Virus record (IMG/VR): IMGVR_UViG_3300045961_000035
Span: 1 to 54,307 of that record
Reading direction: 5' to 3' (one strand)
From: a virus
Taxonomy: Duplodnaviria > Caudoviricetes
Length of the DNA: 54,307 bases
Below, in pieces: positions 855-50,496 of this stretch. The notes beneath the pieces were generated by a model. The model was not told where the DNA came from. It did no database searches and saw only the letters and a program-made list of their open reading frames with translations. Position 1 is the first letter of the stretch. Each line of letters opens with the position of its first letter. The position numbers were made by a program, and so were the translations under genes.

Positions 855-1403
855 TTATTGATTCATGATATGCTTCAGTTTGGAGATGTACTCCGGGTCT
901 TCAGCATAGTACCCACTTAATAACTCAAGAAACTGCTCGTTGTTACGGCAGTGGTTGGCGTATGCGGCGCACCACATCGCGTAGTCAAGTACACTATCCT
1001 CCCAATTTTTATAGTAGGCGTGTCCATATTGAGTGCCGCGCGCAAGGTTCACTCGCGTCTTGGCCTCCTTCATGCCGAATAGGTTGTGGTTCTCTCTGAA
1101 AATGCGAGACCTAAACCCACTCGTTTCAAGTTTCGCTTGAGCCATAGCCACGTCAGCGAACCTCACGTTCAACTCATCCAATCGTGAGCGCAGTCGCTCC
1201 TCACTGAACTCGTTGCCCTTGATGCGAACCTCAAGGATTCGCTCGTGCTCACTCGCCTCCACTATATTAATAGAGAGCAGTGCAACGACGGCCATTGAGG
1301 CCGCCGCTACCTTAAACACTGACCTTCCTATTGGCAACTTGCTGTATGTCAGCGTCTTATCGTTGAAAGTATAGATGCTCATCAGTCCTCGTAGTCGTTC
1401 CAC
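855..1403 (-). CDS. GH73 glucosaminidase-family peptidoglycan hydrolase with N-terminal hydrophobic segment (start probably 1382)
   Basis: AQAKLETS..NHNLFGMK and YAEDPEYISKL motifs; hydrophobic VAAASMAVVALLSI segment. Confidence 0.8.
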   Translation of the reverse strand: MERLRGLMSIYTFNDKTLTYSKLPIGRSVFKVAAASMAVVALLSINIVEASEHERILEVRIKGNEFSEERLRSRLDELNVRFADVAMAQAKLETSGFRSRIFRENHNLFGMKEAKTRVNLARGTQYGHAYYKNWEDSVLDYAMWCAAYANHCRNNEQFLELLSGYYAEDPEYISKLKHIMNQ

Positions 1404-1612
1404 TCATCGAGAATCTCAAGCACCTCGACCTCGTTCTTGTCGGCCAAGGACAGAGGGCTAATCTCAAACTCCTCCGACGCATCGTTGAGGTGGTGTTCGG
1501 CCTCCTCAAGGATGTAGTCCTTGTCGTTGATGTAGTCGGTGTCGACTCGCAGTTTGATGAGGTAGGTCTTGGTCACTTGAACCACTACCTCGCTGATAGA
1601 TACGTCTTTCAT
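1382..1612 (-). CDS. acidic hypothetical protein
   Basis: 76-aa ORF translationally coupled within the operon; very Asp/Glu-rich. Confidence 0.7.
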   Translation of the reverse strand: MKDVSISEVVVQVTKTYLIKLRVDTDYINDKDYILEEAEHHLNDASEEFEISPLSLADKNEVEVLEILDEWNDYED

Positions 1613-1752
1613 AGTTGAATTGGATTAATGATTCGTGTGTTGTTCGGGCAACGCTTCATGTTCAGACGCTTACGCATCTTCTCGCGGGCTTCTGCCTCGG
1701 TGTTGGCCTTGATGACAAAGAGTCGGCCGGTAGCATACAAATAAAAGGTCAT
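1609..1752 (-). CDS. small hypothetical protein (47 aa)
   Basis: Manual translation MTFYLYATGRLFVIKANTEAEAREKMRKRLNMKRCPNNTRIINPIQL; ATGA overlap with the next gene. Confidence 0.7.
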   Translation of the reverse strand: MTFYLYATGRLFVIKANTEAEAREKMRKRLNMKRCPNNTRIINPIQL

Positions 1753-1784
1753 AATAGATTAGGGGATTTAAATTAAACTGAACG

Positions 1785-1840
1785 TTGAGGAGTGGAGGGA
1801 ATCGAACCCTCTCCGCCCTAATTCGGACACCATGCACTCC
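1785..1840 (-). ncRNA. D-armless tRNA-like element (acceptor stem, hairpin, T arm)
   Basis: Minus strand GGAGTG...TGTCC-GAATTA-GGGCG..GAGGG-TTCGATT-CCCTC-CACTCC-TCAA: canonical T arm stacked on a 6-bp acceptor-like stem, only 56 nt. Confidence 0.6.
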
Positions 1841-1848
1841 AATGACCA

Positions 1849-1880
1849 CAAATGTGGTGGAAACCAACCAATCCACCAAA
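1849..1880 (-). promoter_or_regulatory. Bacteroidota sigma-70-type promoter (TTTG-N20-CACATTTG)
   Basis: -33 TTTG at 1877-1880 and -7 box at 1849-1856; predicted start falls just before the tRNA-like element; overlapped by inverted repeat TGGTGGA/TCCACCA. Confidence 0.55.
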
Positions 1881-1882
1881 TT

Positions 1883-2413
1883 TTATTGGGTCAAAACCTC
1901 ACCATAATGACTCATGTAGGTCACGGCCGACTCGCGTGCCGCCTCCATACCATAGAATCCGTACTGACAATCAAGCACCTCGCCGTCATCATCAAGAATC
2001 TGAACGCCGTAGCACTCATTGTTTACCCACATAGTGTACTCGGCGACCTCTTGCTCCAGGATTTTCATGAGACGCTCGTTCAGTTTGTTGGTGATGTACT
2101 TACGGCCGAACTCCTTGAGCATGCGCTCCCTACTTAATACGGCGAAGCCAACACGTCCGCTATCCCATGAGCAACCGAACGACTTGATTGAAAACGACAA
2201 GCCGCTATGGTCGTACATGTGAATCGGAACGACCAACGCGTACCTTGGCTTCAGGTACGACGCCATGTCCTCCCATGAATCAAACGCCTCGGCACGGATG
2301 CCTAACTCGTTTGGTAGGTTGTATTTAGTGTGGTGGAACGTGAACTCAAACACGTTCTCTTGAGTCTCGCGCGGACTATCCGCGAAGACGTCATGTACAA
2401 TTTCAAATTTCAT
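1883..2413 (-). CDS. conserved phage hypothetical protein
   Basis: 176 aa with PIHMYDHSGLS..WDSGRVG and CQYGFYG motifs typical of phage early genes. Confidence 0.8.
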   Translation of the reverse strand: MKFEIVHDVFADSPRETQENVFEFTFHHTKYNLPNELGIRAEAFDSWEDMASYLKPRYALVVPIHMYDHSGLSFSIKSFGCSWDSGRVGFAVLSRERMLKEFGRKYITNKLNERLMKILEQEVAEYTMWVNNECYGVQILDDDGEVLDCQYGFYGMEAARESAVTYMSHYGEVLTQ

Positions 2414-3103: not shown

Positions 3104-3418
3104 TTAAATAATTGAATTGTTTTTAACTACAATGCGGTTGCCTTCGCTTCCATCCCAATCTACGGCAATGCCGAACGACTCAAGGACTCTGACAATCTCA
3201 TGGCCGTTGCCCGACCACGATAGGTAGAGGTCATCACCTCGTTGGTAGTCGGCGTGGTCTTGGGCGTGAGAGAACACGGCGCGGTCGGCCTTCTCTTCTC
3301 TTATGGCCGCCCATCCGCACGACTGACAACACATGAAGTTCTGCTTGGCGAAGTACCCTCGGTTGCGCAGTTCCTTGAACGCCAACGATAGGTTGGTTGG
3401 TTTACGTTTCATTTTCAT
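3104..3418 (-). CDS. DUF6891-like protein
   Basis: AFKELRNRGYFAKQNFMCCQSCG and VDWDGS..RI motifs. Confidence 0.65.
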   Translation of the reverse strand: MKMKRKPTNLSLAFKELRNRGYFAKQNFMCCQSCGWAAIREEKADRAVFSHAQDHADYQRGDDLYLSWSGNGHEIVRVLESFGIAVDWDGSEGNRIVVKNNSII

Positions 3419-3901: not shown

Positions 3902-3932
3902 AAAAAAAGAGAGGAGGTCATGCGACCTCCCC
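3902..3932 (-). terminator. intrinsic terminator after ardC
   Basis: GGGGAGGTC-GCAT-GACCTCCTC followed by TCTTTTTTT on the minus strand, overlapping the stop codon. Confidence 0.75.
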
Positions 3933-4841
3933 TACTATCATGTCAACCGCCTTACTGCTCTGCGTGAGGGCACTCACGATGGCCTTGCTCGGCGTCTCCT
4001 TAATCTTCTTACACCACCCCTGAATGTAGGCGAGGGAATTGTCTCCGCCGTCCTTTGGATTCAGTCCGGCGATACCGGATATCATCATTGAGCCGCTCTC
4101 CGCGACCAACTCCTCCATCGCGTACTGCTCACTGCCGAACACATCAAACTCAACCACGCCCTTGCGCTTGAGACGGCTATCGTGACCGGTGCTATGCACC
4201 AACTCATGGAACAAGGTCTTGTAGTAAGAGTCAGAGTCAACGAACTGCTCGACCTTGGGCATCTGAACGTAGTCCGACGCCGGTGAATAGTAGGCACTAT
4301 TGCCGCCGTGCTTGATGGCCGGCTTGCCGTCCCACGCCGCAATGATGCGCTCGGCCTCCTCAACCGGATTGAACTCTGCCGGCTCCACGACAACGGCTCC
4401 GCCACGCGGCGCAATGTCCGTGCATTGGGCTATATTAAAGACCTTGTACATCTTCAACGTGAAGTACTTCTTGATATCCTTGGGATTCTCGCCGGCACTA
4501 ATTGCGGCGGCCTCGCTCGGGTAGGTCTTCTTCGTGTCGGCGTTCCAATATCCGATGTACCAAAAGTAGATGTCGGTGGCCTTTTCGCCCTTGTTGACGC
4601 GGCCCTTCAATTCAGTCACCTGCTTGAACGTGAGCCACTCGTTGTAGTCGTAGCCGAACTCACGCATGGCCGCCGAAAGGAGCCACACGTTCATGCCGTT
4701 GTAGGCGCGGCCGCTGACGCGGTTGACCGGCCGCCAATCGGAGCCGTTGGTGGACTTCCATGGCTTGAACCACTGCAGGCCCTCGCGCTCAACTCCGGCG
4801 AGGATGGTCTCTTTTACTTGTTCGAAGATGTCTTGCTTCAT
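3918..4841 (-). CDS. ardC: ArdC-family antirestriction protein (ssDNA-binding domain plus zincin-like MPTase)
   Basis: WFKPW, YNGMN..L, WLTFKQ, VNKGEK, VFNIAQ, AYYSP..D, HELVHSTGH..RL.R and YAMEELVAE motifs. Confidence 0.9.
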   Translation of the reverse strand: MKQDIFEQVKETILAGVEREGLQWFKPWKSTNGSDWRPVNRVSGRAYNGMNVWLLSAAMREFGYDYNEWLTFKQVTELKGRVNKGEKATDIYFWYIGYWNADTKKTYPSEAAAISAGENPKDIKKYFTLKMYKVFNIAQCTDIAPRGGAVVVEPAEFNPVEEAERIIAAWDGKPAIKHGGNSAYYSPASDYVQMPKVEQFVDSDSYYKTLFHELVHSTGHDSRLKRKGVVEFDVFGSEQYAMEELVAESGSMMISGIAGLNPKDGGDNSLAYIQGWCKKIKETPSKAIVSALTQSSKAVDMIVGEVA

Positions 4842-6525: not shown

Positions 6526-6869
6526 ATGTTTATGTTGGCGGTCGGTGGATGCATCCGCGTAGAAATTAGAGAAAACTGACGGGCGGGCGGGGCTTAACCG
6601 CCCTCTTCGGGCGTCTCTTTTGTAGTAAAAACGCGGGGCGGACGGGCGGAACGGGCGCGGTGACGGCGGCCGGACGGGGCGCGTGGCGCGACAGGTGCGC
6701 TGCCTGTACGACGATGTTGGAACATGCATGTTGCAACACGGAAACGGCAAAAAATCCGGACGGGGCTCGGCAAATCAGACCCCCCCTATCGAAAAAATAT
6801 CGGTTTCCGGAACGGGCGGTGTCGCGTAGGATGGCAGGGAACCCAAACCCTCTAAAAATCTGATGTCCG

Positions 6870-7413: not shown

Positions 7414-7725
7414 GTGTCGATTCTTATATAGTTAGTGTCGATTTAATGTCGATTTAGTGTCGATTTCTATTCTATTATATTATTGATTTTCAATTAGTTA
7501 TATATAAAATGTCGAAAATGTCGATTTTAAAGTCGATTTTCTCTGAGAAAAAATATTTTACAACCCTATATATATAGAGAGAGAATAGGAAACCCAAAAA
7601 AACCGACATTTTCGACACTTCACAGCTCAAAGAGCTGAGAACCAGCCGACTAAGTCGACACAAAACCGACACAGGTTAGTGTCGATTTCTTTAAGTTGCT
7701 GATTATCAGCATACATTTTCGACAT
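7414..7725. repeat. iteron-like (T)GTCGR array, putative replication origin or packaging signal
   Basis: About 14 copies; seven forward (7414-7536), mostly inverted CGACA copies after 7600, flanking an AT-rich core with the CTATATATATAG palindrome. Confidence 0.7.
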
Positions 7726-39745: not shown

Positions 39746-42700
39746 ATGAACGAAGAGCTTAAGAAGCTATACGATGCAATCGTATCTAAAGGTTTCTATA
39801 CCAAGTCGTATGACGATTTTGTAAATCAGTACCAAGACCCCGCATACCGCGACAAGGTATTTGATGTTGTAACTCGTGAAGGTCTATACACTAGGGGGCG
39901 CGAAGAGTTCGATACAAAGTATGCAGCGACTGGTTTAAAAAAAAAAGAACCTTCAGTTTCTACTTCTCAAGAGGCCGCTATGGAGCAGCCTATGGAGACT
40001 GGTTCTTCGGAGTTGCCAAAGTCCGCAGGCGTTAAGGTAACTACTCCTACGGGACAACAGGCCACTGTTCAGTGGGGGCCTACAGAATTTAAGGCTTCAC
40101 AAGATGCTCCCATGTACGACATGGCGAGTCTGTCTGATATTGTTGGAAATGTTGACGTTACGATTGATGAGGCTACCAAGCAAAAGATAAGCAATGTTGT
40201 AGGCATCACTGGCGCCGTATTTAACAAGATTGTAAACCCGCAGTCCAACGCTGCCCAGGCATTGGCTGATGCAAAAAAGTTTGCCGACAACACTCAGACC
40301 GCATACAATGTTGGAGCCCTGAGTGCGCAGATTAGCAACAACATGGCTGATGAAGTTCCTGACTATGAGCGAGTTGCAAAACTCAAGCAGCAACTGAAAA
40401 ACGAGCAGCCCAAACTTTTGTCATCGCAGCTTGGTGCTGAAGCAGGTGACTTCTTTGATATGCTTGCGGCCAACCCGGTTACATTCCTTACTGAGGTATT
40501 GACTACGTCTGCAACTCAGATGACCGGTGGAGCTGGCGCAATGACACCAGAGGACCTATTGTACGCCACAGCGCTCGGCCTTCCTACCGCTGGAGCTGGA
40601 GCAACCGCCTACATGGCAGGGAAAAACTCACTTAATGCGGAGATGTCTTCTCGCATTCTTGACGCCCTCGAGGAGCGTGGTGTTGATGTAACAAATGCTG
40701 AGCAGCTTCGAACAGCTATGACCAATCCAGAATTAATGATGGATGTCAAAAGCGAAATTCAGGCTCCCGCTACAATTGTTGCTGCACTCGACGCCGTAAG
40801 TGGCGGTCTTGCTGGACGAGTTGGTAAGCCACTAGTTGAACTTGCCATTCAGGCTGGGTCTGGTGCCGTAGGTGAGGCTGGTGCTCAGATTGCCGCAGAT
40901 GGACGTATTACTTCGCCGTCAGCTATCCTTACTGAGATGGTGGCAGAGATTCCAGGTGGCCTTATTGAGACGGCGTTTGGTGCTAAGACGAAAGACATTG
41001 CTCGCAAGACAAAGGTCAATCAGGAAATCAATGAGCTTGAGACTGAGCTTTCTGCGACTGATGACCCAGAGGTTAGAGGGGTACTTGAGACTGCGCTCAA
41101 TGCCAAGAGAAACGAGAAGAATAAGATATTCACTGACTACGCAGACTTTGTGAACTCACTGCCCGAAGAAGAGGTGGCGAGGCTCAATGCGTTAAATGAG
41201 GAGATAGTAAAAGTTAGCAACGCAATCAATACAGTGACCAGCGATATAGCTGGAAAGGCACTGAGAGACCGGAGACAGTCTCTGCTTGATGAGGTTGCAA
41301 AGATTGAAGAAACCGCAACACCAACACAAGATGCCGTTCAAGAGCAAGCAACAGATGAAGGCGTGCTACGCCCAGAACAACCCGAAGTGGGACTGCAAGA
41401 AATGGTCGAAGGAGACCAAGAACCTGAAGTCGTTGCCGAAGCGGGTGAAGAAGTAGTTCCTCAGGCTGTAGAAGAACAAGAGCTGTCTGACCTTAGAGCA
41501 ATTATAGGTGAGCCAGATGGTGGTGAACCAAGATTCAGGCTTTCCGATAGTGAGACTATTGTGAACGAGGCTGATGTCGAGGGGATTACCGATGTGATGA
41601 ACAAGATGCCAGCTGTTCAGCTGGAATTTCAGGAGCCAACTGGCGTTGAGACATCTATCGTATCTCCAATCGAGCAGTCGAAATCGACTGTAAAGGACAT
41701 CACGGAAGAGCAAGCCAGTGCACTTACTGGTAGAATCGAAGATTACAATGGCCTACCTATGGTCACTGGAATGTCTGACATATTGGCATCTGGCGTAGTA
41801 AAGGACTCAATGGGTAATGACATGCAGGTAGACGGTGGTCTTCTGTTCAATGTCCTAGGCTCTAATAAGGACCTCGCTTGGGCTGGCGTAAACGAAGGTG
41901 GAGCTCAGGCTCAGTATGACGCAGCGGTGCGTCTATATCAGTCTAATAAGCCACTGTTCGATAAGGCTTGGACTGACGGAAAGCTGCCTAATGGTCATGT
42001 TCCGATGGCCATTATGCGAATGTCAAATGGTGCAATCAATTCCAACGAGGCTGTGTTCCGCTGGATACTTCCAACGGTAGAATCACTTCCGGAAAAGAAC
42101 AGAGTTAACGCAATGACTCCATTGATTGAGGCTATTGATGCGAAGACAAAAGTTTCCGACGATAAGATTAGAGCGGCAGCCAATGCGCTTAAGAGCGATA
42201 TCGAAGCCAATAACATTAAATCAGTTGATGAGTTACTTAAGTATGTAATTGAGCAGGCTAAGCAGCGTGCTGCTGGCAATGAGGATACATTTACTCTACC
42301 TGAGCGCTCTCTTCTTTATGAGGTTATGTTCTCTGCTGAGGGCGTAAAGAAACCAAATTCAAAATACATCAAGACGTTATTTGATGGCGTCGATGCCACT
42401 AACGCAAAGAACTTCACCTCTGATGCTATCTATGATGCAATTGGCGAGGAGTCAATGAAGAGCTTAAAGCAGGGAAGTGTTGTTGCCATCATGGGTATTG
42501 ACGTACTAAATGGCGGCATTCAGAAAGCGCAGCACAACAACTATGGATTCGGCCCAAAGGGGCAGGCAATTGCTATTTTGCAAAACCCCACGCATGGCAT
42601 TGATGTATTCCCGGAGTGGAAGGCCAAGGCTTCGCGAGTGTTCAAGGAAAAAGTAAAGAAGACCGGAGAGGTTGTGGCTCCGGACATGGAGTCGATACCA

Positions 42701-45700
42701 ACACAAGTTGGTGGTGCCTTCTTTGCTGATGGCGCATTTATTGGCGCAAGACCAATGGTGAATGCCATCGGTGACATAGAGATGCTGATGGGCAAGCTTC
42801 GGTTTGCGTTCCCATCCGTTCAAGCTACGGCTACACAGGAGGAGTTTGATGCCATCATGCAGGACCCAGAGGTAAGAACCAGAGAGGTCAACGGCATGAA
42901 GATTCTTGGCTTGACCAAGGACGGCAATATATACATCAACCCCAGCGAGGCTTCGCTGGCTACGCCAATCCACGAGTTTGGTCACATCTGGATTGACTTC
43001 CTGCGCTCTAAGGAATCAGGCAAGAAGGGCACTGAGCTGCTTAATAAGGGGCTTGAGCTTGTCGAAGGAACGATGGAGCTTGATACGGCCAAGGCGAAGT
43101 ATGGAGACACGGAGCTAGCTAGAGAAGAAGCGCTTGTTGAATTGATGGCCACCAAGGGTGAGACCATCATCAATGCATCTAAGCGTTCCAAGTTTAAGTC
43201 TTGGCTTAATGGCGTGTTCAAGTACATCAAAGAAAGATTCACTACATCTAAGGACCTAAAGGTAGACGGCATCAAAGACCTTACGCTTGACGAGTTCATT
43301 GGCGTAGCTCTAGCTGACCTGTTCTCTGGCCAGCCAATCAACAACAAGTTCAGCCCGAGAAAGGCTGCCGAGTCTATGCGTGCTAGATACAGCGCGCAAG
43401 AGGACAACATCTACGACATAGTTGGAAAGGCAAGGGCTGAAGGTTTCAGGGATGTAACTATCGAAGCGTTTCTAAAGGAGCGTGGATACACGTCTGAAGA
43501 AATCAAGGGAGCCATGGAGATTCCGCTCGATGTGCTCGGCAACGTGCTTCCTGATGCGTTTAAAAACCTTGAGGGCGGGGCGGTAGTTGGTCAGAATTTA
43601 TTTAACAACATCAAAGAAAAGTTAAATAAGCTTGCTGCCAAGAAGAATAAAATCACCAAGAAGCCTGTATACAATAAGTTACAGCTTCGTGAAGAGACAA
43701 AGAATCTTCTGACTGCTACCGAAGAGTTCAAGGCTCAGACGGATGAGGTGAAGGCTAAGCTGATGCTTGACCTCGACAAGGCAATTGGCATCAAGTCAAG
43801 TAACGCAGCAATGCGTGAAGAGTTCAAGTCGCTGAGAGCTATGCTCTTGGACCGCAAGAAGACCAGAGATAATCTCGAGGCCATCAAACGTAAGGTGCGT
43901 GGCTTCATTCGCAAGTCATTGCCGCAGGGTGAGTACACCAAGGCTGATGTACTTAAGTTAATCCAGGCCGTTACCGACGCCAACTACGACAACCTGCCCG
44001 CAATAATGCAGCGCGTTGAGGGATACGTTAACGAGTACAACGTAGCCAAGGTAGAGCGAGACATCAAGAAACTTCTTGAGACCAAGACCACTAAGGTTGA
44101 GAGCGGTAGAAGAATGGGCACTACGACTATCCAGGTTCAGGATGCCATTGCTTCTATTAATGAGGAGCTTGTGAGTCCAGACATGGCGCCAGATAAGATA
44201 GCCGAAACCATGGAGCGCCAGCTTAAGGAGTTCGATGAATTGACTTCTGAATTCTCTCTCGACGAAGAGGATATAATGCGTGCTCAGGTTCTACAGATAG
44301 CCATGCTGTACAACGAGGCATCGCTGATGGAGAACAACGACCCGAACAAACTGGATACGTTGACGCAGGCTAAGACGCAGCTGGCTCAGCTCGTACTTGA
44401 GGGACGCTCAGCGTTTAAGGATGCGCTGTCTCGTCAGCATGAGATGTACAGACAGAACGTGAAGGACCTCATCGAATCTATCACGGGCAAGGTAGTTGAT
44501 GACGACATCACTACCAACGATGGGGCTGAGGAGTTTGTTAGAACGTCAGAGATTGAGCGAGCAAACGAGGAGGCCACTAAGTCAAGAGTCGCAAAGGCGT
44601 GGTCTTCATTTGTTGGCCAGCCGTTCACTAACTACTTTGATAAGACTGGTTCACTTCACACGCTGTTGTCGCGCATAACGGAGAACCTTACTGACCAGTT
44701 TGGCGGAAGAGTTCACGATATGGTATACGACAGACTCAAGCAATCAAGCATTGAGTTCGAGGGCAGGATGCAGAAGATGAACGCCATGATTGACAAGGCA
44801 GCCATCGACATCTTTGGAGAGAAGTACGACAGCGTTGTAAAGAACAACAAGGTAAAAGCTCCAGTCGACATCTTTAAGGATGAGGCAGCTGCCAAGAAGA
44901 TTATGGATGAGATGAAGACGGCAAGCTCAAAGCGTAAGACTGAGCTGAATGCTGAGCTTAACAAACTCCGTGTGTTCGAGCCGATGAGTCAAAACCAAAT
45001 CTACTACCTGTACAACCAATACAAAGACCCGGCTAACAGAACTGGCTTCGAGTCTAAGTTTGGAGACAACTACGTAGAGCTTATGGACAGGCTATTCAAC
45101 GAGGCTCTTGACCCAAGGGTAAAAGAATGGGCTGACTGGCAGGTAAACGTTTTGTACCCATCACTTTACCAGGACTACAACCCAGTATATCAGAATATAT
45201 TCCGCACCAATATGCCGTGGAATCCGAACTACGCTGGACGGATGTATCGTGAGTTTGAGGCTGACGATACCATGGCAATCACGCTGATGAATGATAAGGG
45301 CGAGTTCTCAAACATCCAGACGCCATCGTCTACGAAGCTTCGCAAGAAGAATAAGAATGCCATCAAGCTGATGGATGGTGATGGTGTGCTATCATCATAC
45401 CTTGGCGACATGGAATACTTCCGTGCATACGCGGAGAGTATCCGTGACATTGATAAGATGTTCAAGAACAAGGCTGTTCGCGAGTCAATCAAGAGGACTA
45501 CCGGGGAAGATGTGCTCAAGCTTATCGACAACAACATTAAGCTTGTTGGAACGAGAGGGATGAGTGCCGGAGAGGGCATGAAGCAAACTATGCTTGATAA
45601 TATATCAGCCAGATTCTCTAAGGCTGTGCTCATGGCTAACCCATCTCAGTTTGTCAAGCAGGCAACGTCTTTGTTTGCGTTCGCTAACCGCATTGGCTTT

Positions 45701-46777
45701 GAGAACTGGGCTAAGTACACAGCCAAGGCAACGCCAGACATGAAGAATCTTTGGAATGAGTTCATCGAGAATGCGCCACGCATTCAGAAGCGCTACAACC
45801 CGAAGGAGCTGACGGCCATCATTGGAACGTACAAGCAGGGACGAACTACGGACATAATGCCAAAGGATAAAGAAGGTAATCCAATCCTTAGAACGGCTGG
45901 AGAAGTATACGACAAGATGCTTGATGCCATGATGTGGCCTGTAATTCAGGGTGATAAGTTCTCGGCTATGGCTGGAGCAATGGGCAACTACCTGTACTAC
46001 AAGGAGTCGTTCTTTGCTTCCAATCCCAAGGCCACGGAACAAGAGGCCATCAAGTATGCGGCCGATAAGGTCAGCACCGAGATTGAGCAGACGCTTGGCT
46101 CATCCGATATTATCGACAAGGACTACTATCAAAACTCTGGCAACGCATTGTACCGTGCGTTCTCTGTACTTCAGAATGCGCCAAAGGCTATGATTCGTCA
46201 GATTGTTCCAGCGTACAGCGGCTTCTTTAAGAAGCTGGCAAAGATGGATAAAACGGCAGGACAGGGAACGCTCAAGCAAAACATTGAGACCATCTTCCTA
46301 TACCAATTCTTGGTACCCATGCTGTTCCAGTACGCGGTACTCGGATTTCCAGGTCTGCTTAGAGAGTGGAGAGAAGATGAGGACGATTACGAAATGGGTA
46401 TGGCCGCTCTGCTCGGACCGTTCACTGCGCTGTTCTTTGTTGGAGATATGCTTACCGCCGCACGCGACCTATTGCTTGACAAGCCGTGGGCTACAGATGC
46501 ACGCACTGCTCCGGGATGGGATATTCTATCTGATGCAACTAAGTCTGCTCAGAAGATAATGAATGCCAAGAGTGATGACGATGTATACGAGGCTATTGCA
46601 GACATGGGTTACGCAGCGTCAGCTGCCGCAGGACTTGGCCTCAAGAACATAAGCAGAATGGCTCAGAACATGGCTGAGGTAATCGACAGCGGTGCTAACG
46701 ATGCAGGAGAAGCGGTTCTAAGGTTGCTAAACTATTCAGACTACACCATTGAGGGACCAGACAGGAAAAAGAAGTAG
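39746..46777 (+). CDS. giant virion (ejection/polyvalent-type) protein with zincin-like HExxH motif
   Basis: 2343 aa; IYINP..LATPIHEFGHIW..EEALVE; hydrophobic Gly/Ala segments near both ends. Confidence 0.8.
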   Translation: MNEELKKLYDAIVSKGFYTKSYDDFVNQYQDPAYRDKVFDVVTREGLYTRGREEFDTKYAATGLKKKEPSVSTSQEAAMEQPMETGSSELPKSAGVKVTTPTGQQATVQWGPTEFKASQDAPMYDMASLSDIVGNVDVTIDEATKQKISNVVGITGAVFNKIVNPQSNAAQALADAKKFADNTQTAYNVGALSAQISNNMADEVPDYERVAKLKQQLKNEQPKLLSSQLGAEAGDFFDMLAANPVTFLTEVLTTSATQMTGGAGAMTPEDLLYATALGLPTAGAGATAYMAGKNSLNAEMSSRILDALEERGVDVTNAEQLRTAMTNPELMMDVKSEIQAPATIVAALDAVSGGLAGRVGKPLVELAIQAGSGAVGEAGAQIAADGRITSPSAILTEMVAEIPGGLIETAFGAKTKDIARKTKVNQEINELETELSATDDPEVRGVLETALNAKRNEKNKIFTDYADFVNSLPEEEVARLNALNEEIVKVSNAINTVTSDIAGKALRDRRQSLLDEVAKIEETATPTQDAVQEQATDEGVLRPEQPEVGLQEMVEGDQEPEVVAEAGEEVVPQAVEEQELSDLRAIIGEPDGGEPRFRLSDSETIVNEADVEGITDVMNKMPAVQLEFQEPTGVETSIVSPIEQSKSTVKDITEEQASALTGRIEDYNGLPMVTGMSDILASGVVKDSMGNDMQVDGGLLFNVLGSNKDLAWAGVNEGGAQAQYDAAVRLYQSNKPLFDKAWTDGKLPNGHVPMAIMRMSNGAINSNEAVFRWILPTVESLPEKNRVNAMTPLIEAIDAKTKVSDDKIRAAANALKSDIEANNIKSVDELLKYVIEQAKQRAAGNEDTFTLPERSLLYEVMFSAEGVKKPNSKYIKTLFDGVDATNAKNFTSDAIYDAIGEESMKSLKQGSVVAIMGIDVLNGGIQKAQHNNYGFGPKGQAIAILQNPTHGIDVFPEWKAKASRVFKEKVKKTGEVVAPDMESIPTQVGGAFFADGAFIGARPMVNAIGDIEMLMGKLRFAFPSVQATATQEEFDAIMQDPEVRTREVNGMKILGLTKDGNIYINPSEASLATPIHEFGHIWIDFLRSKESGKKGTELLNKGLELVEGTMELDTAKAKYGDTELAREEALVELMATKGETIINASKRSKFKSWLNGVFKYIKERFTTSKDLKVDGIKDLTLDEFIGVALADLFSGQPINNKFSPRKAAESMRARYSAQEDNIYDIVGKARAEGFRDVTIEAFLKERGYTSEEIKGAMEIPLDVLGNVLPDAFKNLEGGAVVGQNLFNNIKEKLNKLAAKKNKITKKPVYNKLQLREETKNLLTATEEFKAQTDEVKAKLMLDLDKAIGIKSSNAAMREEFKSLRAMLLDRKKTRDNLEAIKRKVRGFIRKSLPQGEYTKADVLKLIQAVTDANYDNLPAIMQRVEGYVNEYNVAKVERDIKKLLETKTTKVESGRRMGTTTIQVQDAIASINEELVSPDMAPDKIAETMERQLKEFDELTSEFSLDEEDIMRAQVLQIAMLYNEASLMENNDPNKLDTLTQAKTQLAQLVLEGRSAFKDALSRQHEMYRQNVKDLIESITGKVVDDDITTNDGAEEFVRTSEIERANEEATKSRVAKAWSSFVGQPFTNYFDKTGSLHTLLSRITENLTDQFGGRVHDMVYDRLKQSSIEFEGRMQKMNAMIDKAAIDIFGEKYDSVVKNNKVKAPVDIFKDEAAAKKIMDEMKTASSKRKTELNAELNKLRVFEPMSQNQIYYLYNQYKDPANRTGFESKFGDNYVELMDRLFNEALDPRVKEWADWQVNVLYPSLYQDYNPVYQNIFRTNMPWNPNYAGRMYREFEADDTMAITLMNDKGEFSNIQTPSSTKLRKKNKNAIKLMDGDGVLSSYLGDMEYFRAYAESIRDIDKMFKNKAVRESIKRTTGEDVLKLIDNNIKLVGTRGMSAGEGMKQTMLDNISARFSKAVLMANPSQFVKQATSLFAFANRIGFENWAKYTAKATPDMKNLWNEFIENAPRIQKRYNPKELTAIIGTYKQGRTTDIMPKDKEGNPILRTAGEVYDKMLDAMMWPVIQGDKFSAMAGAMGNYLYYKESFFASNPKATEQEAIKYAADKVSTEIEQTLGSSDIIDKDYYQNSGNALYRAFSVLQNAPKAMIRQIVPAYSGFFKKLAKMDKTAGQGTLKQNIETIFLYQFLVPMLFQYAVLGFPGLLREWREDEDDYEMGMAALLGPFTALFFVGDMLTAARDLLLDKPWATDARTAPGWDILSDATKSAQKIMNAKSDDDVYEAIADMGYAASAAAGLGLKNISRMAQNMAEVIDSGANDAGEAVLRLLNYSDYTIEGPDRKKK
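41331..41456 (+). CDS. nested +1-frame small basic protein (41 aa)
   Basis: MPFKSKQQMKACYAQNNPKWDCKKWSKETKNLKSLPKRVKK lies inside an acidic linker of the giant gene. Confidence 0.6.
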   Translation: MPFKSKQQMKACYAQNNPKWDCKKWSKETKNLKSLPKRVKK

Positions 46778-46850
<73 letters not shown>

Positions 46851-49751: not shown

Positions 49752-49982
49752 TTATTGGTCCATCGAAGATAGTAATCTATCTCCAATTTCTGAATCAATT
49801 TTCTTTATGTATGTGTAAATCTTTTTAGACTTGGACTTGACTTCTTGCTTTTCCTTCTTAGTGGAGTTCACTCCCATCCTTGTGTAGAGCATGCAGTCAA
49901 TCTGCAGAAGCTTGCTAATCTTACAGCGGTCGCACAGCTTGGCTGACATCAGCTTGTCAATTTGTTCAAAGTTGTAGTCCAT
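49752..49982 (-). CDS. hypothetical protein
   Basis: 76-aa ORF in the operon. Confidence 0.7.
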   Translation of the reverse strand: MDYNFEQIDKLMSAKLCDRCKISKLLQIDCMLYTRMGVNSTKKEKQEVKSKSKKIYTYIKKIDSEIGDRLLSSMDQ

Positions 49983-50496
49983 TCATGAATCGATTTAGTT
50001 TCTCTTCGAATATACTAATCTTGCTTACTGGCACCTGCTGCTTCATTCTTTCCAGTACGTTATGAAACAATTCATAGTTTTCTGCCTGACGCTCAATTAG
50101 TTTCAGTTGCAAAGATAGTGAAGATACTTTATCGGAAAGCATTTCGTTTTCTGATTTGAGGATGGCATTGTCGGCGATGATGTCATCAGCAATCTCAGTT
50201 GTCATGTGCCCGGACTCAATCTTTTCCTTGAAGTACTTTACCACTCGCTCGTATTTCTCCTTGAACATCTTGTCGCTAGACAGCCACCCCTCTACGTTGC
50301 GAAGTCCGTGCATCACGGTAGCGTGGTCTCTGTTTACCTCCTCGCCAATCCTTGAAAGCGAGTAGTGGTAAGTGTCCTTAGCTATCTTGTAGTATATGTA
50401 CCTAGCCTCAACGTACTCTTTTCTCCTTGTCTTTAATCTTATGTCGAACTGAGTGATGTTAGTGACCATGTCAGCTAGTAATCTCAAGTGATTCAT
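49966..50496 (-). CDS. DnaA C-terminal-like HTH DNA-binding protein
   Basis: KTRRKEYVEAR..YSLSRIGEEVNRDHATVMHG matches the DnaA domain IV signature. Confidence 0.75.
   Translation of the reverse strand: MNHLRLLADMVTNITQFDIRLKTRRKEYVEARYIYYKIAKDTYHYSLSRIGEEVNRDHATVMHGLRNVEGWLSSDKMFKEKYERVVKYFKEKIESGHMTTEIADDIIADNAILKSENEMLSDKVSSLSLQLKLIERQAENYELFHNVLERMKQQVPVSKISIFEEKLNRFMNGLQL

What the first reader, a model, noticed from the sequence alone, without database searches (positions are those of the whole stretch)
1785..1880. Minimal D-armless tRNA mimic placed at a promoter, ahead of an early gene
Seen: a 56-nt element with a perfect T arm (GAGGG-TTCGATT-CCCTC), a 6-bp acceptor-like stem, one weak middle hairpin, no D arm and a TCAA tail. 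It starts ~3 nt after the predicted TSS of a TTTG-N20-CACATTTG promoter. Known: RNase P and RNase Z recognise mainly the acceptor/T-arm half. Inference: it could be a third RNA-processing device in the same operon, or a decoy RNA for host anticodon nucleases or tRNA-binding defence proteins.
Basis: partly seen in the sequence, partly recalled or inferred. Interest (0 to 1): 0.72.

Follow-up and report, generated by a model that had tools for sequence, protein, structure and literature searches.

The report
Half-tRNA element between phage early genes
A 54-base remnant of a transfer-RNA gene that keeps only the upper half of the tRNA shape sits between two early genes of an uncultured freshwater phage; it may serve as a cutting signal for host RNA-processing enzymes or be a harmless relic.

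Summary
The element is real. It lies on the minus strand at 1841-1788, with a tail to 1785. It has a 6-bp Watson-Crick acceptor stem, a perfect T arm (GAGGG-TTCGATT-CCCTC), one weak middle hairpin, and no D or anticodon arm. ARAGORN and Rfam do not call it a tRNA; the best Rfam hit is mascRNA, far below threshold.

It lies in a 65-nt block absent from 3 of 3 gene-level relatives (L163-L165). Contigs from three DNA runs cover it without indels. One RNA-library fragment runs from the upstream gene through the element and stops at 1785.

The TTTG-N20-CACATTTG motif exists and is kept in L163, but it is not enriched in the window, and the sigma-70 consensus scan found no site there.

Non-orthologous "top-half" tRNA-like elements of 42-58 nt occur in other phages (E2, E3, E6, E7). 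In the DNA surveyed they are about as frequent as canonical tRNAs.

Best reading: a tRNA-derived top half, closest to a tRNA-Lys, that host RNase P and 3' trimming enzymes can still recognise, like plant mitochondrial t-elements. A neutral relic is nearly as likely. A decoy role is unsupported. No covariation test was possible. Interest is moderate.

The parts
1788..1841 (-). 54-nt tRNA-derived 'top-half' element (E1): U1841, 5' acceptor strand 1840-1835, connector 1834-1830, weak hairpin 1829-1812, T arm 1811-1795, 3' acceptor strand 1794-1789, U1788
   Evidence: Sequence; RNAfold fold; strict structural scan, 2 sites in the window against 0 in 20 shuffles; weak full-length match to Rfam mascRNA-menRNA, 18.5 bits against a gathering score of 42.5, E 0.33; not called by ARAGORN or Rfam tRNA
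1795..1811 (-). T arm GAGGG-TTCGATT-CCCTC with canonical T-loop
   Evidence: Sequence. The 23-mer of T arm plus 3' acceptor is identical in 1 IMG/VR contig (a tRNA-Lys(UUU)) and in 10 bacterial loci, where it lies in tRNA Tyr, Trp, Pro and Leu genes
1785..1787 (-). CAA tail; with U1788 it reads UCAA where a tRNA has N73-CCA
   Evidence: Sequence. RNA-library contig X19 record 1 covers 1785-1935 with 0 differences and ends at 1785. This is a weak hint only
1782..1846 (-). 65-nt block that holds the element and is absent from relative L163
   Evidence: Pairwise alignment A3. L164 and L165 have almost no spacer at this point
1849..1880 (-).
   Evidence: Found; not enriched; both end motifs kept in L163 while the spacer has diverged
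1855..1878 (-). 7-bp hairpin UGGUGGA-N10-UCCACCA inside that motif, starting 5 nt after the upstream stop codon
   Evidence: RNAfold of 1780-1882; absent from L163
1765..1776 (-). AT-rich leader TTAATTTAAATC, 13 nt before the next start codon
   Evidence: The same 12-mer follows element E2 in relative G011, and similar strings follow E3, E4 and a tRNA-Trp
1883..2413 (-). Upstream 176-aa gene (phrog_6186, function unknown)
   Evidence: AlphaFold model with pLDDT 92 and no PDB match at E <= 0.001
1609..1752 (-). Downstream 47-aa ORF, kept in L163, L164 and L165
   Evidence: 88.9% nt identity to L163

Best explanation
E1 is a tRNA-derived 'top half'. It is what remains of a phage tRNA gene after loss of the D arm and anticodon arm. 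The 3' part is closest to a tRNA-Lys(UUU). It sits in a 65-nt lineage-specific block between two co-oriented early genes.

Transcribed as part of the early polycistronic RNA, it folds into the coaxial acceptor/T-arm helix with a canonical T-loop. That helix is what host tRNA-maturation enzymes recognise. The expected outcome is RNase P cleavage at or next to U1841/G1840 and 3' trimming to about 1785-1788. This would punctuate the transcript between the 176-aa gene and the 47-aa gene, or leave the upstream mRNA with a nuclease-resistant tRNA-like 3' end. It would work as t-elements do in plant mitochondria.

Shown: the anatomy, the tRNA origin, the insertion, its persistence in several haplotypes, and the recurrence of such elements in other phages. 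Inferred: transcription, cleavage and any selective benefit.
For: 1. The structure is present and non-random: 2 sites in the window against 0 in 20 shuffles.

2. tRNA origin. The 23-mer of T arm plus 3' acceptor is identical to real tRNAs. The phage tRNA-Lys in L002 also shares 6 of 7 bases of the 5' acceptor strand and the AGGGC just before the T arm.

3. RNase P binds the T-stem-loop/acceptor stack and measures from the elbow, and the D-loop appears dispensable (passages of PMC4919913). Plant t-elements were found with the same GGTTCRANYCC scan, and their ends coincide with mRNA ends (passages of PMC1920247).

4. Persistence. DNA contigs cover 1785-1841 with no indel there: X2 (1300-2469) and X3 (1300-2426), each with 72 differences and the same 2 one-base gaps at 1532/1534, and X4 (1485-2038, 21 differences, 0 gaps). 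With the window this makes three haplotypes.

5. An RNA-library contig (X19, 151 nt, 0 differences) spans 1935-1785 and ends at the predicted 3' end.

6. Recurrence:
- E2: G011 24632-24591, 42 nt, 7 Watson-Crick acceptor pairs, fold z -2.61.
- E3: G018 1312-1363, 52 nt, same three-helix layout as E1.
- E6: L085 and L086 850-907, 58 nt.
- E7: G009 5331-5288, 44 nt, T-loop TTCGTTA.

The four whose flanks were listed (E1-E3, E6) lie between ORFs of the same strand; E7's flanks were not examined. In the roughly 769 kb scanned in both, these five mini elements compare with 3 canonical tRNAs.
Against: - The element is absent from 3 of 3 relatives found through the upstream gene: L163 (93.4% nt identity in that gene), L164 and L165. 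The operon works without it.
- The five mini elements share no flanking genes or sequence. E2 and E3 were found only in one further, near-identical contig each. No element shows long-term conservation, and no compensatory change could be scored.
- Fold energies are unremarkable for E1 (z -1.3 to -1.6) and E3 (z -1.29).
- The bare T-loop 11-mer is hardly above chance in the relatives: 5 hits against 3 for the reversed control. All scans required a T arm and an acceptor, so the survival of the 'top half' is partly built into the search.
- The RNA-library fragment is continuous across the predicted RNase P site. It is effectively one fragment of a contig data set that cannot establish RNA ends, and DNA can be present in RNA libraries.
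- The first acceptor position is a U-U mismatch and no CCA is encoded.
Confidence: 0.45

Rival explanations
1. Neutral relic. E1 is a recently truncated tRNA pseudogene with no selected role. Its intact stems reflect only its young age, and any cleavage by tRNA enzymes is incidental.
For: - Missing from L163, L164 and L165.
- No orthologous conservation of any mini element.
- A U-U mismatch at the first acceptor position, no CCA, and a non-canonical middle region.
- tRNA gene fragments are a common by-product of genome flux (passages of PMC9897764).
- Bacterial MAG loci L205 and L206 hold the exact T-arm-plus-3'-acceptor 23-mer of E2 with no tRNA call and no 5' acceptor strand within the 90 bases upstream.
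- E7 has a degenerate T-loop, as expected of decay.
Against: - An internal loss that removes only the D and anticodon arms while keeping both acceptor strands was seen in five unrelated elements, which equals or exceeds the number of canonical tRNAs in the same DNA. The searches could not detect other kinds of fragment, so this point is weak.
- E1 is kept without indels in haplotypes that differ by about 4-15% in the flanking genes.
Confidence: 0.38
2. Decoy or sponge. The small RNA mimics the acceptor/elbow half of tRNA to occupy a host defence effector or tRNA-binding protein.
For: - The patchy, fast-turnover distribution across phages resembles that of anti-defence genes.
- It lies in an early-gene block that also has an ArdC-like anti-restriction gene at 3918-4841.
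Against: - It has no anticodon loop, so it cannot mimic the target of anticodon nucleases.
- No free small RNA has been shown; the only RNA-library fragment is joined to the upstream gene.
- Four of the five literature searches used terms that would catch a phage tRNA-like or tRNA-mimic RNA, with the word decoy; none returned a paper on a phage top-half tRNA decoy.
Confidence: 0.08
3. A longer, decayed class-II tRNA. The true unit is 1879-1787 (93 nt), and the middle hairpin is a long variable arm.
For: - ARAGORN at an 80% threshold calls a 93-nt 'tRNA-Asp(gtc)' there.
- A Streptomyces tRNA-Leu(CAA) shares GGTGTCC at the junction of anticodon stem and variable arm.
Against: - There is no call at default, -ps or -ps90.
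- That model needs 2 mismatches in the acceptor, a 3-bp D stem, an anticodon stem made mostly of G-U pairs, and G in place of U33.
- It competes with the perfect 6-bp stem GGAGTG/CACTCC.
- In the alignment with L163, the 5' part of that model (1879-1847) lies outside the 65-nt block that L163 lacks and aligns to L163's own spacer.
Confidence: 0.03
4. Attachment-site remnant. E1 is a tRNA 3' fragment used for, or left by, site-specific integration.
For: Integrative elements commonly carry or leave tRNA 3' fragments (passages of PMC9897764).
Against: - No tyrosine integrase or serine recombinase domain in the window (the record is 89% complete).
- No tyrosine integrase in 0 of 5 TerL relatives, 4 of them complete.
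- E1 also keeps the 5' acceptor strand, which att fragments lack.
Confidence: 0.02
5. A working D-armless decoding tRNA of the kind found in animal mitochondria.
For: Its size of 54 nt falls in the range of mitochondrial minimal tRNAs, which I know only from the search listing.
Against: - There is no 5-bp stem with a 7-nt U33-containing loop between the acceptor and the T arm.
- ARAGORN in mitochondrial modes finds nothing at default. At -ps90 it finds only poor calls, and the only one that coincides with the element (bases 120-172 of the stretch) lies on the opposite strand with a two-base 'anticodon'.
Confidence: 0.01

Closest known systems
Plant mitochondrial t-elements (Hanic-Joyce 1990, cited in Forner et al. 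2007; passages of PMC1920247 read)
   Same: - tRNA-like sequences with non-canonical cloverleaves that keep the GGTTCRANYCC T-arm motif and an acceptor stem.
- They lie between or next to protein genes in long transcripts.
- They are proposed or shown to direct RNase P and RNase Z cuts that make mRNA ends.
- They were found by the same motif scan used here.
   Different: - A phage of bacteria, not an organelle.
- No mapped RNA ends beyond one RNA-library fragment.
- E1 is shorter, and its middle region is reduced to one weak hairpin.
- No cleavage data.
mascRNA / MEN-beta tRNA-like RNAs (Rfam RF01684)
   Same: - About 56-60 nt.
- Acceptor, reduced D region, one middle stem and a T arm.
- They sit at the 3' end of a longer transcript.
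- The Rfam model aligns end to end with E1.
   Different: - The score of 18.5 bits is far below the gathering score of 42.5, with E 0.33.
- The family is mammalian and nuclear, so there is no homology.
tRNA gene fragments and pseudogenes in prokaryotic genomes (passages of PMC9897764)
   Same: A partial tRNA sequence that tRNA finders reject or flag. Such fragments are expected where genomes are mosaic.
   Different: Those fragments are 5' or 3' pieces made by integration or CRISPR uptake. E1 is an internal loss that keeps both acceptor strands and the T arm.
tRNA-like module of bacterial and phage YrlA (Y) RNAs (passages of PMC4201824)
   Same: A non-decoding RNA with a T arm and an acceptor-like stem. 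One member is cut by RNase P and receives CCA. Members occur in 22 phages.
   Different: - YrlA lies within 4 kb of a Ro60 (TROVE) gene and carries a Ro-binding stem and a GNCGAA motif.
- The window has no TROVE domain, and Rfam gave no Y RNA match.
tRNA punctuation of mitochondrial polycistronic transcripts
   Same: tRNA-shaped units between cistrons are cut out by RNase P and RNase Z, which frees the mRNAs.
   Different: There the units are working tRNAs and the arrangement is genome-wide. Here there is a single non-decoding element in one spacer.

Membership tests
Canonical tRNA (Rfam RF00005 / ARAGORN) | Score at or above the gathering threshold, or a default ARAGORN call | tested here: not met
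   No call at 1785-1880. In E-value mode the tRNA hit fell below the 11.7-bit tmRNA fragment of the same clan. ARAGORN gave 0 genes at default, -ps and -ps90
Canonical tRNA (Rfam RF00005 / ARAGORN) | D arm, and an anticodon arm with a 7-nt loop | tested here: not met
   Only 23 nt lie between the acceptor and the T arm. They hold one hairpin with a 6- or 8-nt loop and no U33 context
Canonical tRNA (Rfam RF00005 / ARAGORN) | T arm with a T54-psi55-C56-R57-A58-type loop, abutting a 7-bp acceptor | tested here: met
   GAGGG-TTCGATT-CCCTC is directly followed by CACTCC(U). There are 6 Watson-Crick pairs plus U-U
t-element-like processing signal | GGTTCRANYCC motif within a foldable acceptor/T-arm structure outside a canonical tRNA | tested here: met
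   GGTTCGATTCC at 1808-1798; fold; criterion taken from PMC1920247
t-element-like processing signal | Ends of the element coincide with transcript ends | tested here: inconclusive
   One RNA-library contig ends at 1785 but runs through 1841/1840. Contigs cannot establish RNA ends
t-element-like processing signal | Cleavage by RNase P and/or RNase Z | not testable with these tools
   Needs an in vitro or in vivo assay
mascRNA-menRNA (RF01684) | Score at or above the gathering threshold of 42.5 bits | tested here: not met
   18.5 bits, E 0.33
YrlA / bacterial Y RNA | A neighbouring Ro60 (TROVE) gene on the same strand | tested here: not met
   No TROVE match in the window at E <= 0.1
Phage attP / att remnant in a tRNA gene | An integrase in the genome | tested here: not met
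   PF00589 and PF00239 gave 0 matches in the window. PF00589 matched 0 of 5 relatives
Promoter of the TTTG / TAnnTTTG type (consensus recalled, from no call) | The motif recurs upstream of genes in the same genome | tested here: not met
   TTTG-N17-21-TANNTTTG occurs 2 times against 0.74 expected, and neither site is here. The relaxed form occurs 3 times against 2.32
Promoter of the TTTG / TAnnTTTG type (consensus recalled, from no call) | Conserved boxes around a diverged spacer in relatives | tested here: met
   AATTTGGT and ACACATTTG are identical in L163, while the 18 nt between match at 7 positions. This rests on a single relative

The most novel reading that the evidence does not exclude
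Phages carry a recurrent, so far undescribed class of 42-58-nt 'top-half' tRNA mimics: acceptor plus T arm, with the D and anticodon arms replaced by an 11-27-nt connector. E1, E2, E3, E6 and E7 would be members. Selection would keep them in early operons, either as punctuation read by host RNase P and 3' processing enzymes, or as sponges for host factors that grip the tRNA acceptor or elbow.
Probability: 0.2. Interest if true: 0.75.

Novelty: new variant of a known kind. Interest (0 to 1): 0.42.

Why it matters
If these half-tRNAs are processed, phages would be using the host's tRNA-maturation machinery to cut and stabilise early messages. That strategy is documented for plant mitochondria and for a few mammalian long non-coding RNAs, but not for phage operons.

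It would also mean that tRNA finders systematically miss a class of phage RNA elements. In the DNA surveyed here they are about as frequent as canonical tRNAs.

If they are only relics, they still mark rapid gain and decay of tRNA genes in the accessory early regions of these phages.

Tried and rejected
- **Relatives of the locus.**
  - blastn of 1400-2500 against GenBank phages found no match.
  - The upstream 176-aa protein alone found no relative in IMG/VR.
  - With an alignment of homologues, only relatives at 42% identity or less were found. ARAGORN found 0 tRNAs in the 60 of those 80 loci that I gave it.
  - 0 of 20 TerL relatives carry the 176-aa gene, so synteny could not be used in that family.
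- **Covariation.**
  - No sequence-variable copies of E1 could be obtained.
  - The IMG/VR pattern for the E1 junction gave 0 hits.
  - A search for a spuriously called ORF across the element in the protein collection found nothing.
  - E2 and E3 each have one further copy with 0 changes in near-identical flanks, which is uninformative.
- **RNA runs.** RNA run X19 covers only 8 of 30 bins. Parts without cover say nothing.
- **Upstream 176-aa protein.** The model has pLDDT 92 but no PDB match at E <= 0.001. The Atlas gave only unnamed viral clusters. This gives no link to RNA biology.
- **tRNA-handling enzymes.** No CCA-adding or poly(A) polymerase domain in the window.
- **Element E5.** E5 (G011 13298-13206, 93 nt) has an acceptor no better than chance by my own estimate, so I dropped it from the counts.
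- Two folds (L179, L180) used wrong coordinates and are disregarded. They were redone.
- **MAFFT alignment.** The alignment of E1, E2, E3 and E6 misplaced the 5' strands, and my E6 coordinates were wrong. No covariance model was built.

Full report
**What is there.**
The window is an IMG/VR virus record of 54,307 bp, 89% complete. It encodes a GroEL-like protein, a large terminase, a portal and tail fibres. Small early genes lie on the minus strand at both ends of the record.

The finding lies on the minus strand, between a 176-aa gene (1883-2413, phrog_6186) and a 47-aa ORF (1609-1752). Read 5' to 3' on that strand, the element is:
- U1841
- GGAGUG (1840-1835)
- CAUGG
- a weak hairpin (1829-1812)
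- GAGGG-UUCGAUU-CCCUC (1811-1795)
- CACUCC (1794-1789)
- U
- CAA (to 1785)

. The energy is not exceptional: z -1.3 to -1.6, with 17 to 23 of 200 shuffles folding as well. The combination of T-loop, T stem and abutting six-pair acceptor is not a chance event. A strict scan found 2 sites in the window, the tRNA-Met and this element, and none in 20 shuffles.

**Not a tRNA by the standard tools.**
- ARAGORN at default finds only tRNA-Met at 46777-46850.
- Rfam at gathering scores finds the same tRNA and nothing else.
- In E-value mode the best hit over the element is mascRNA-menRNA. It aligns end to end but scores 18.5 bits against a threshold of 42.5 (E 0.33). The tRNA model scored below an 11.7-bit tmRNA T-arm fragment.
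- ARAGORN gave nothing at -ps or -ps90. At -ps80 it drew a 93-nt 'tRNA-Asp(gtc)' over 1879-1787, with two acceptor mismatches, a 3-bp D stem and a G-U anticodon stem. I reject that model. In the alignment with L163, its 5' part (1879-1847) lies outside the 65-nt block that L163 lacks.
- Mitochondrial modes gave nothing at default.

**Origin.**
The 23-mer of T arm plus 3' acceptor strand is identical in one other IMG/VR contig, where it belongs to a tRNA-Lys(UUU). It is also identical in 10 bacterial loci, where it belongs to tRNA-Tyr (3), Trp (3), Leu-CAA (3) and Pro (1).

The phage tRNA-Lys also shares 6 of 7 bases of the 5' acceptor strand and the AGGGC just before the T arm. So the element is tRNA-derived. 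A Lys-type parent is the best guess, and it remains an inference.

**Relatives.**
The upstream gene has close homologues only in metagenomes. The one metagenome scan returned three loci.
- L163 is 93.4% identical in nucleotides in the 176-aa gene and 88.9% in the 47-aa ORF. Its spacer is about 56 nt instead of 130 nt. Alignment shows a 65-nt block (1846-1782) that holds the element and is missing there.
- L164 and L165 (66% amino-acid identity) have one base between the stop and the next start.
- So 0 of 3 gene-level relatives have the element, although all keep the 47-aa ORF.

By contrast, Logan contigs from three DNA runs cover 1785-1841 with no indel there:
- X2 and X3 each show 72 differences and the same two one-base gaps at 1532/1534.
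- X4 shows 21 differences and no gaps over 1485-2038.

With the window this gives three haplotypes that keep the element. They differ from the window by about 4% across the 176-aa gene and up to 15% in the 76-aa ORF. I could not see which differences fall inside the element, because the table was cut at 1561.

**RNA.**
Run X19 is a metatranscriptome held as contigs. It gave a 151-nt contig with 0 differences covering 1785-1935, and a second covering 1908-2053. Together these are most simply one fragment of about 274 nt.

The same fragment is continuous across 1841/1840 and begins inside the upstream gene. It therefore shows neither a start site just upstream of the element nor RNase P cleavage. 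The tool warns that contigs cannot show RNA ends and that DNA can be present in RNA libraries. I count this as a weak hint only.

**The promoter claim.**
TTTG-N20-CACATTTG is at 1880-1849. It is not enriched:
- CACATTTG occurs 2 times against 2.16 expected.
- The strict form occurs 2 times against 0.74, at other places.
- The relaxed form occurs 3 times against 2.32.
- The sigma-70 consensus scan found no site between the stop codon and the element.

In its favour, both boxes are identical in L163 while the spacer has diverged. The spacer in the window forms a 7-bp hairpin (1878-1855) that L163 lacks. The promoter is possible but not shown.

**A wider pattern.**
Among 20 larger contigs related by terminase (72-80% identity):
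- Rfam tRNA found one canonical tRNA (G018, Trp) and one sub-threshold 43-nt hit.
- A T-loop pattern found 5 sites in 3 of 20 records, against 3 sites for the reversed control.
- The same pattern found none in 50 short contigs.

Adding the stem requirements leaves elements that neither ARAGORN nor Rfam calls as tRNAs:
- E2: 42 nt, 7 Watson-Crick acceptor pairs, an 11-nt connector, z -2.61.
- E3: 52 nt, the same layout as E1.
- E4: 82 nt.

Two more elements, which were not run through Rfam, are E6 (58 nt), in two near-identical contigs of unrelated phages, and E7 (44 nt, T-loop TTCGTTA). ARAGORN did not call a tRNA at E6.

The strict scan gave 5 hits in 307 kb of five relatives, four distinct elements, against 0.65 in shuffles. 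The five elements whose flanks were listed (E1-E4, E6) lie between small ORFs of the same strand; E7's flanks were not examined. E1 to E4 and the tRNA-Trp are followed by C and an AT-rich leader. The 12-mer TTAATTTAAATC follows both E1 and E2.

Their flanking genes are unrelated, so they are not orthologues. E2 and E3 recur only in one near-identical contig each. My scans could only find units with a T arm and an acceptor, so they cannot show that top halves outnumber other kinds of tRNA debris.

**Other readings tested.**
- No integrase or resolvase in the window, and no integrase in 0 of 5 relatives. An attachment site is therefore unlikely.
- No TROVE (Ro60) gene, so it is not a YrlA.
- No CCA-adding enzyme gene.
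- The upstream 176-aa protein folds confidently (pLDDT 92) but matches nothing solved or named. It gives no clue.

**Comparison with what is known.**
RNase P binds the T-stem-loop/acceptor stack and measures from the elbow, and the D-loop appears dispensable (passages of PMC4919913).

Plant mitochondrial t-elements are non-canonical tRNA-like units found with the same GGTTCRANYCC scan. Their ends match mRNA ends, and they are cut by RNase P and RNase Z (passages of PMC1920247). That is the closest functional analogue.

tRNA gene fragments are common by-products of integration (passages of PMC9897764). Y RNAs of bacteria and 22 phages carry a tRNA-like module next to Ro60 (passages of PMC4201824).

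Five full-text searches returned no paper describing acceptor/T-arm-only tRNA-like elements in phage genomes. Supplements were closed and most subscription journals are not in the library, so absence from print is not established.

**Verdict.**
The most likely mechanism is that host tRNA-maturation enzymes recognise the surviving top half and so shape the ends of the neighbouring messages (0.45). A neutral, recently truncated tRNA gene is almost as likely (0.38). The promoter-coupled and decoy ideas remain unsupported. The recurrence of similar mini elements in other phages is the most interesting lead and deserves a collection-wide test.

Noticed in passing
window 7431-7468, 7517-7539, 7676-7688 (+): An iteron-like array of (A/T)(A/G)TGTCGATTT at 11-nt spacing, in the gene-poor stretch between the divergent gene blocks. 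A protein with a DnaA C-terminal HTH domain lies at 49966-50496. This could be an origin or an operator region.
   Followed up: no
window 6578-6680 (+): GC-rich direct repeats of the type GACGGGCGGGCGGGGC.
   Followed up: no
G011 24632-24591 (-) = L182 1490-1531; identical copy in L202: E2 is a 42-nt minimal tRNA-like unit with 7 Watson-Crick acceptor pairs, an 11-nt connector and a T arm. It is followed by UCAA and the same TTAATTTAAATC leader as in the window.
   Followed up: partly
G018 1312-1363 (+) = L178; identical copy in L204: E3 is a 52-nt unit with the same three-helix layout as the window element. It is preceded by a CCACC-type hairpin, as the window element is.
   Followed up: partly
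L085 and L086 850-907 (+): E6 is a 58-nt acceptor/T-arm unit in a phage unrelated by terminase, 1.6 kb upstream of a homologue of the 176-aa gene. By eye it is followed by an AT-rich hairpin and a T run; the terminator scan did not call it.
   Followed up: partly
G009 5331-5288 (-) and 3851-3770 (-): E7 is 44 nt with T-loop TTCGTTA. E4 is 82 nt with 7 Watson-Crick acceptor pairs; neither ARAGORN nor Rfam calls E4 a tRNA. The two lie 1.5 kb apart in a complete relative.
   Followed up: no
L108 252, 500, 773, 1619 (+): Four T-loop motifs within 1.4 kb of a 251-kb phage contig, none called a tRNA by ARAGORN. One is a 112-nt unit with a D arm but an aberrant anticodon region, and it shares its 3' end with E5 of G011.
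   Followed up: no
L205 2056-2078 (+), L206 5242-5264 (-): Two bacterial MAG contigs (Myxococcales and Flavipsychrobacter) carry the exact T-arm-plus-3'-acceptor 23-mer of E2. Neither has a tRNA call or a 5' acceptor strand within the 90 bases upstream. They are probably tRNA 3' fragments.
   Followed up: partly
window 1883-2413 (-): The 176-aa protein (phrog_6186) gives a confident model (pLDDT 92) with no PDB match at E <= 0.001. Its invariant residues include H28, Y31, M66, Y67, H69, W83, D84 and D148. The family is widespread in phages and unnamed.
   Followed up: partly
L164 810-1110 (+): A DUF6891-like ORF is inserted between the homologues of the 47-aa and 76-aa ORFs. In the window the DUF6891 gene sits upstream at 3104-3418. 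This shows module shuffling in the early region.
   Followed up: no
window 39746-46777 (+): A 2343-aa ORF at the end of the structural block has no PHROG match at E <= 0.001. The tRNA-Met gene overlaps its last base on the opposite strand.
   Followed up: no
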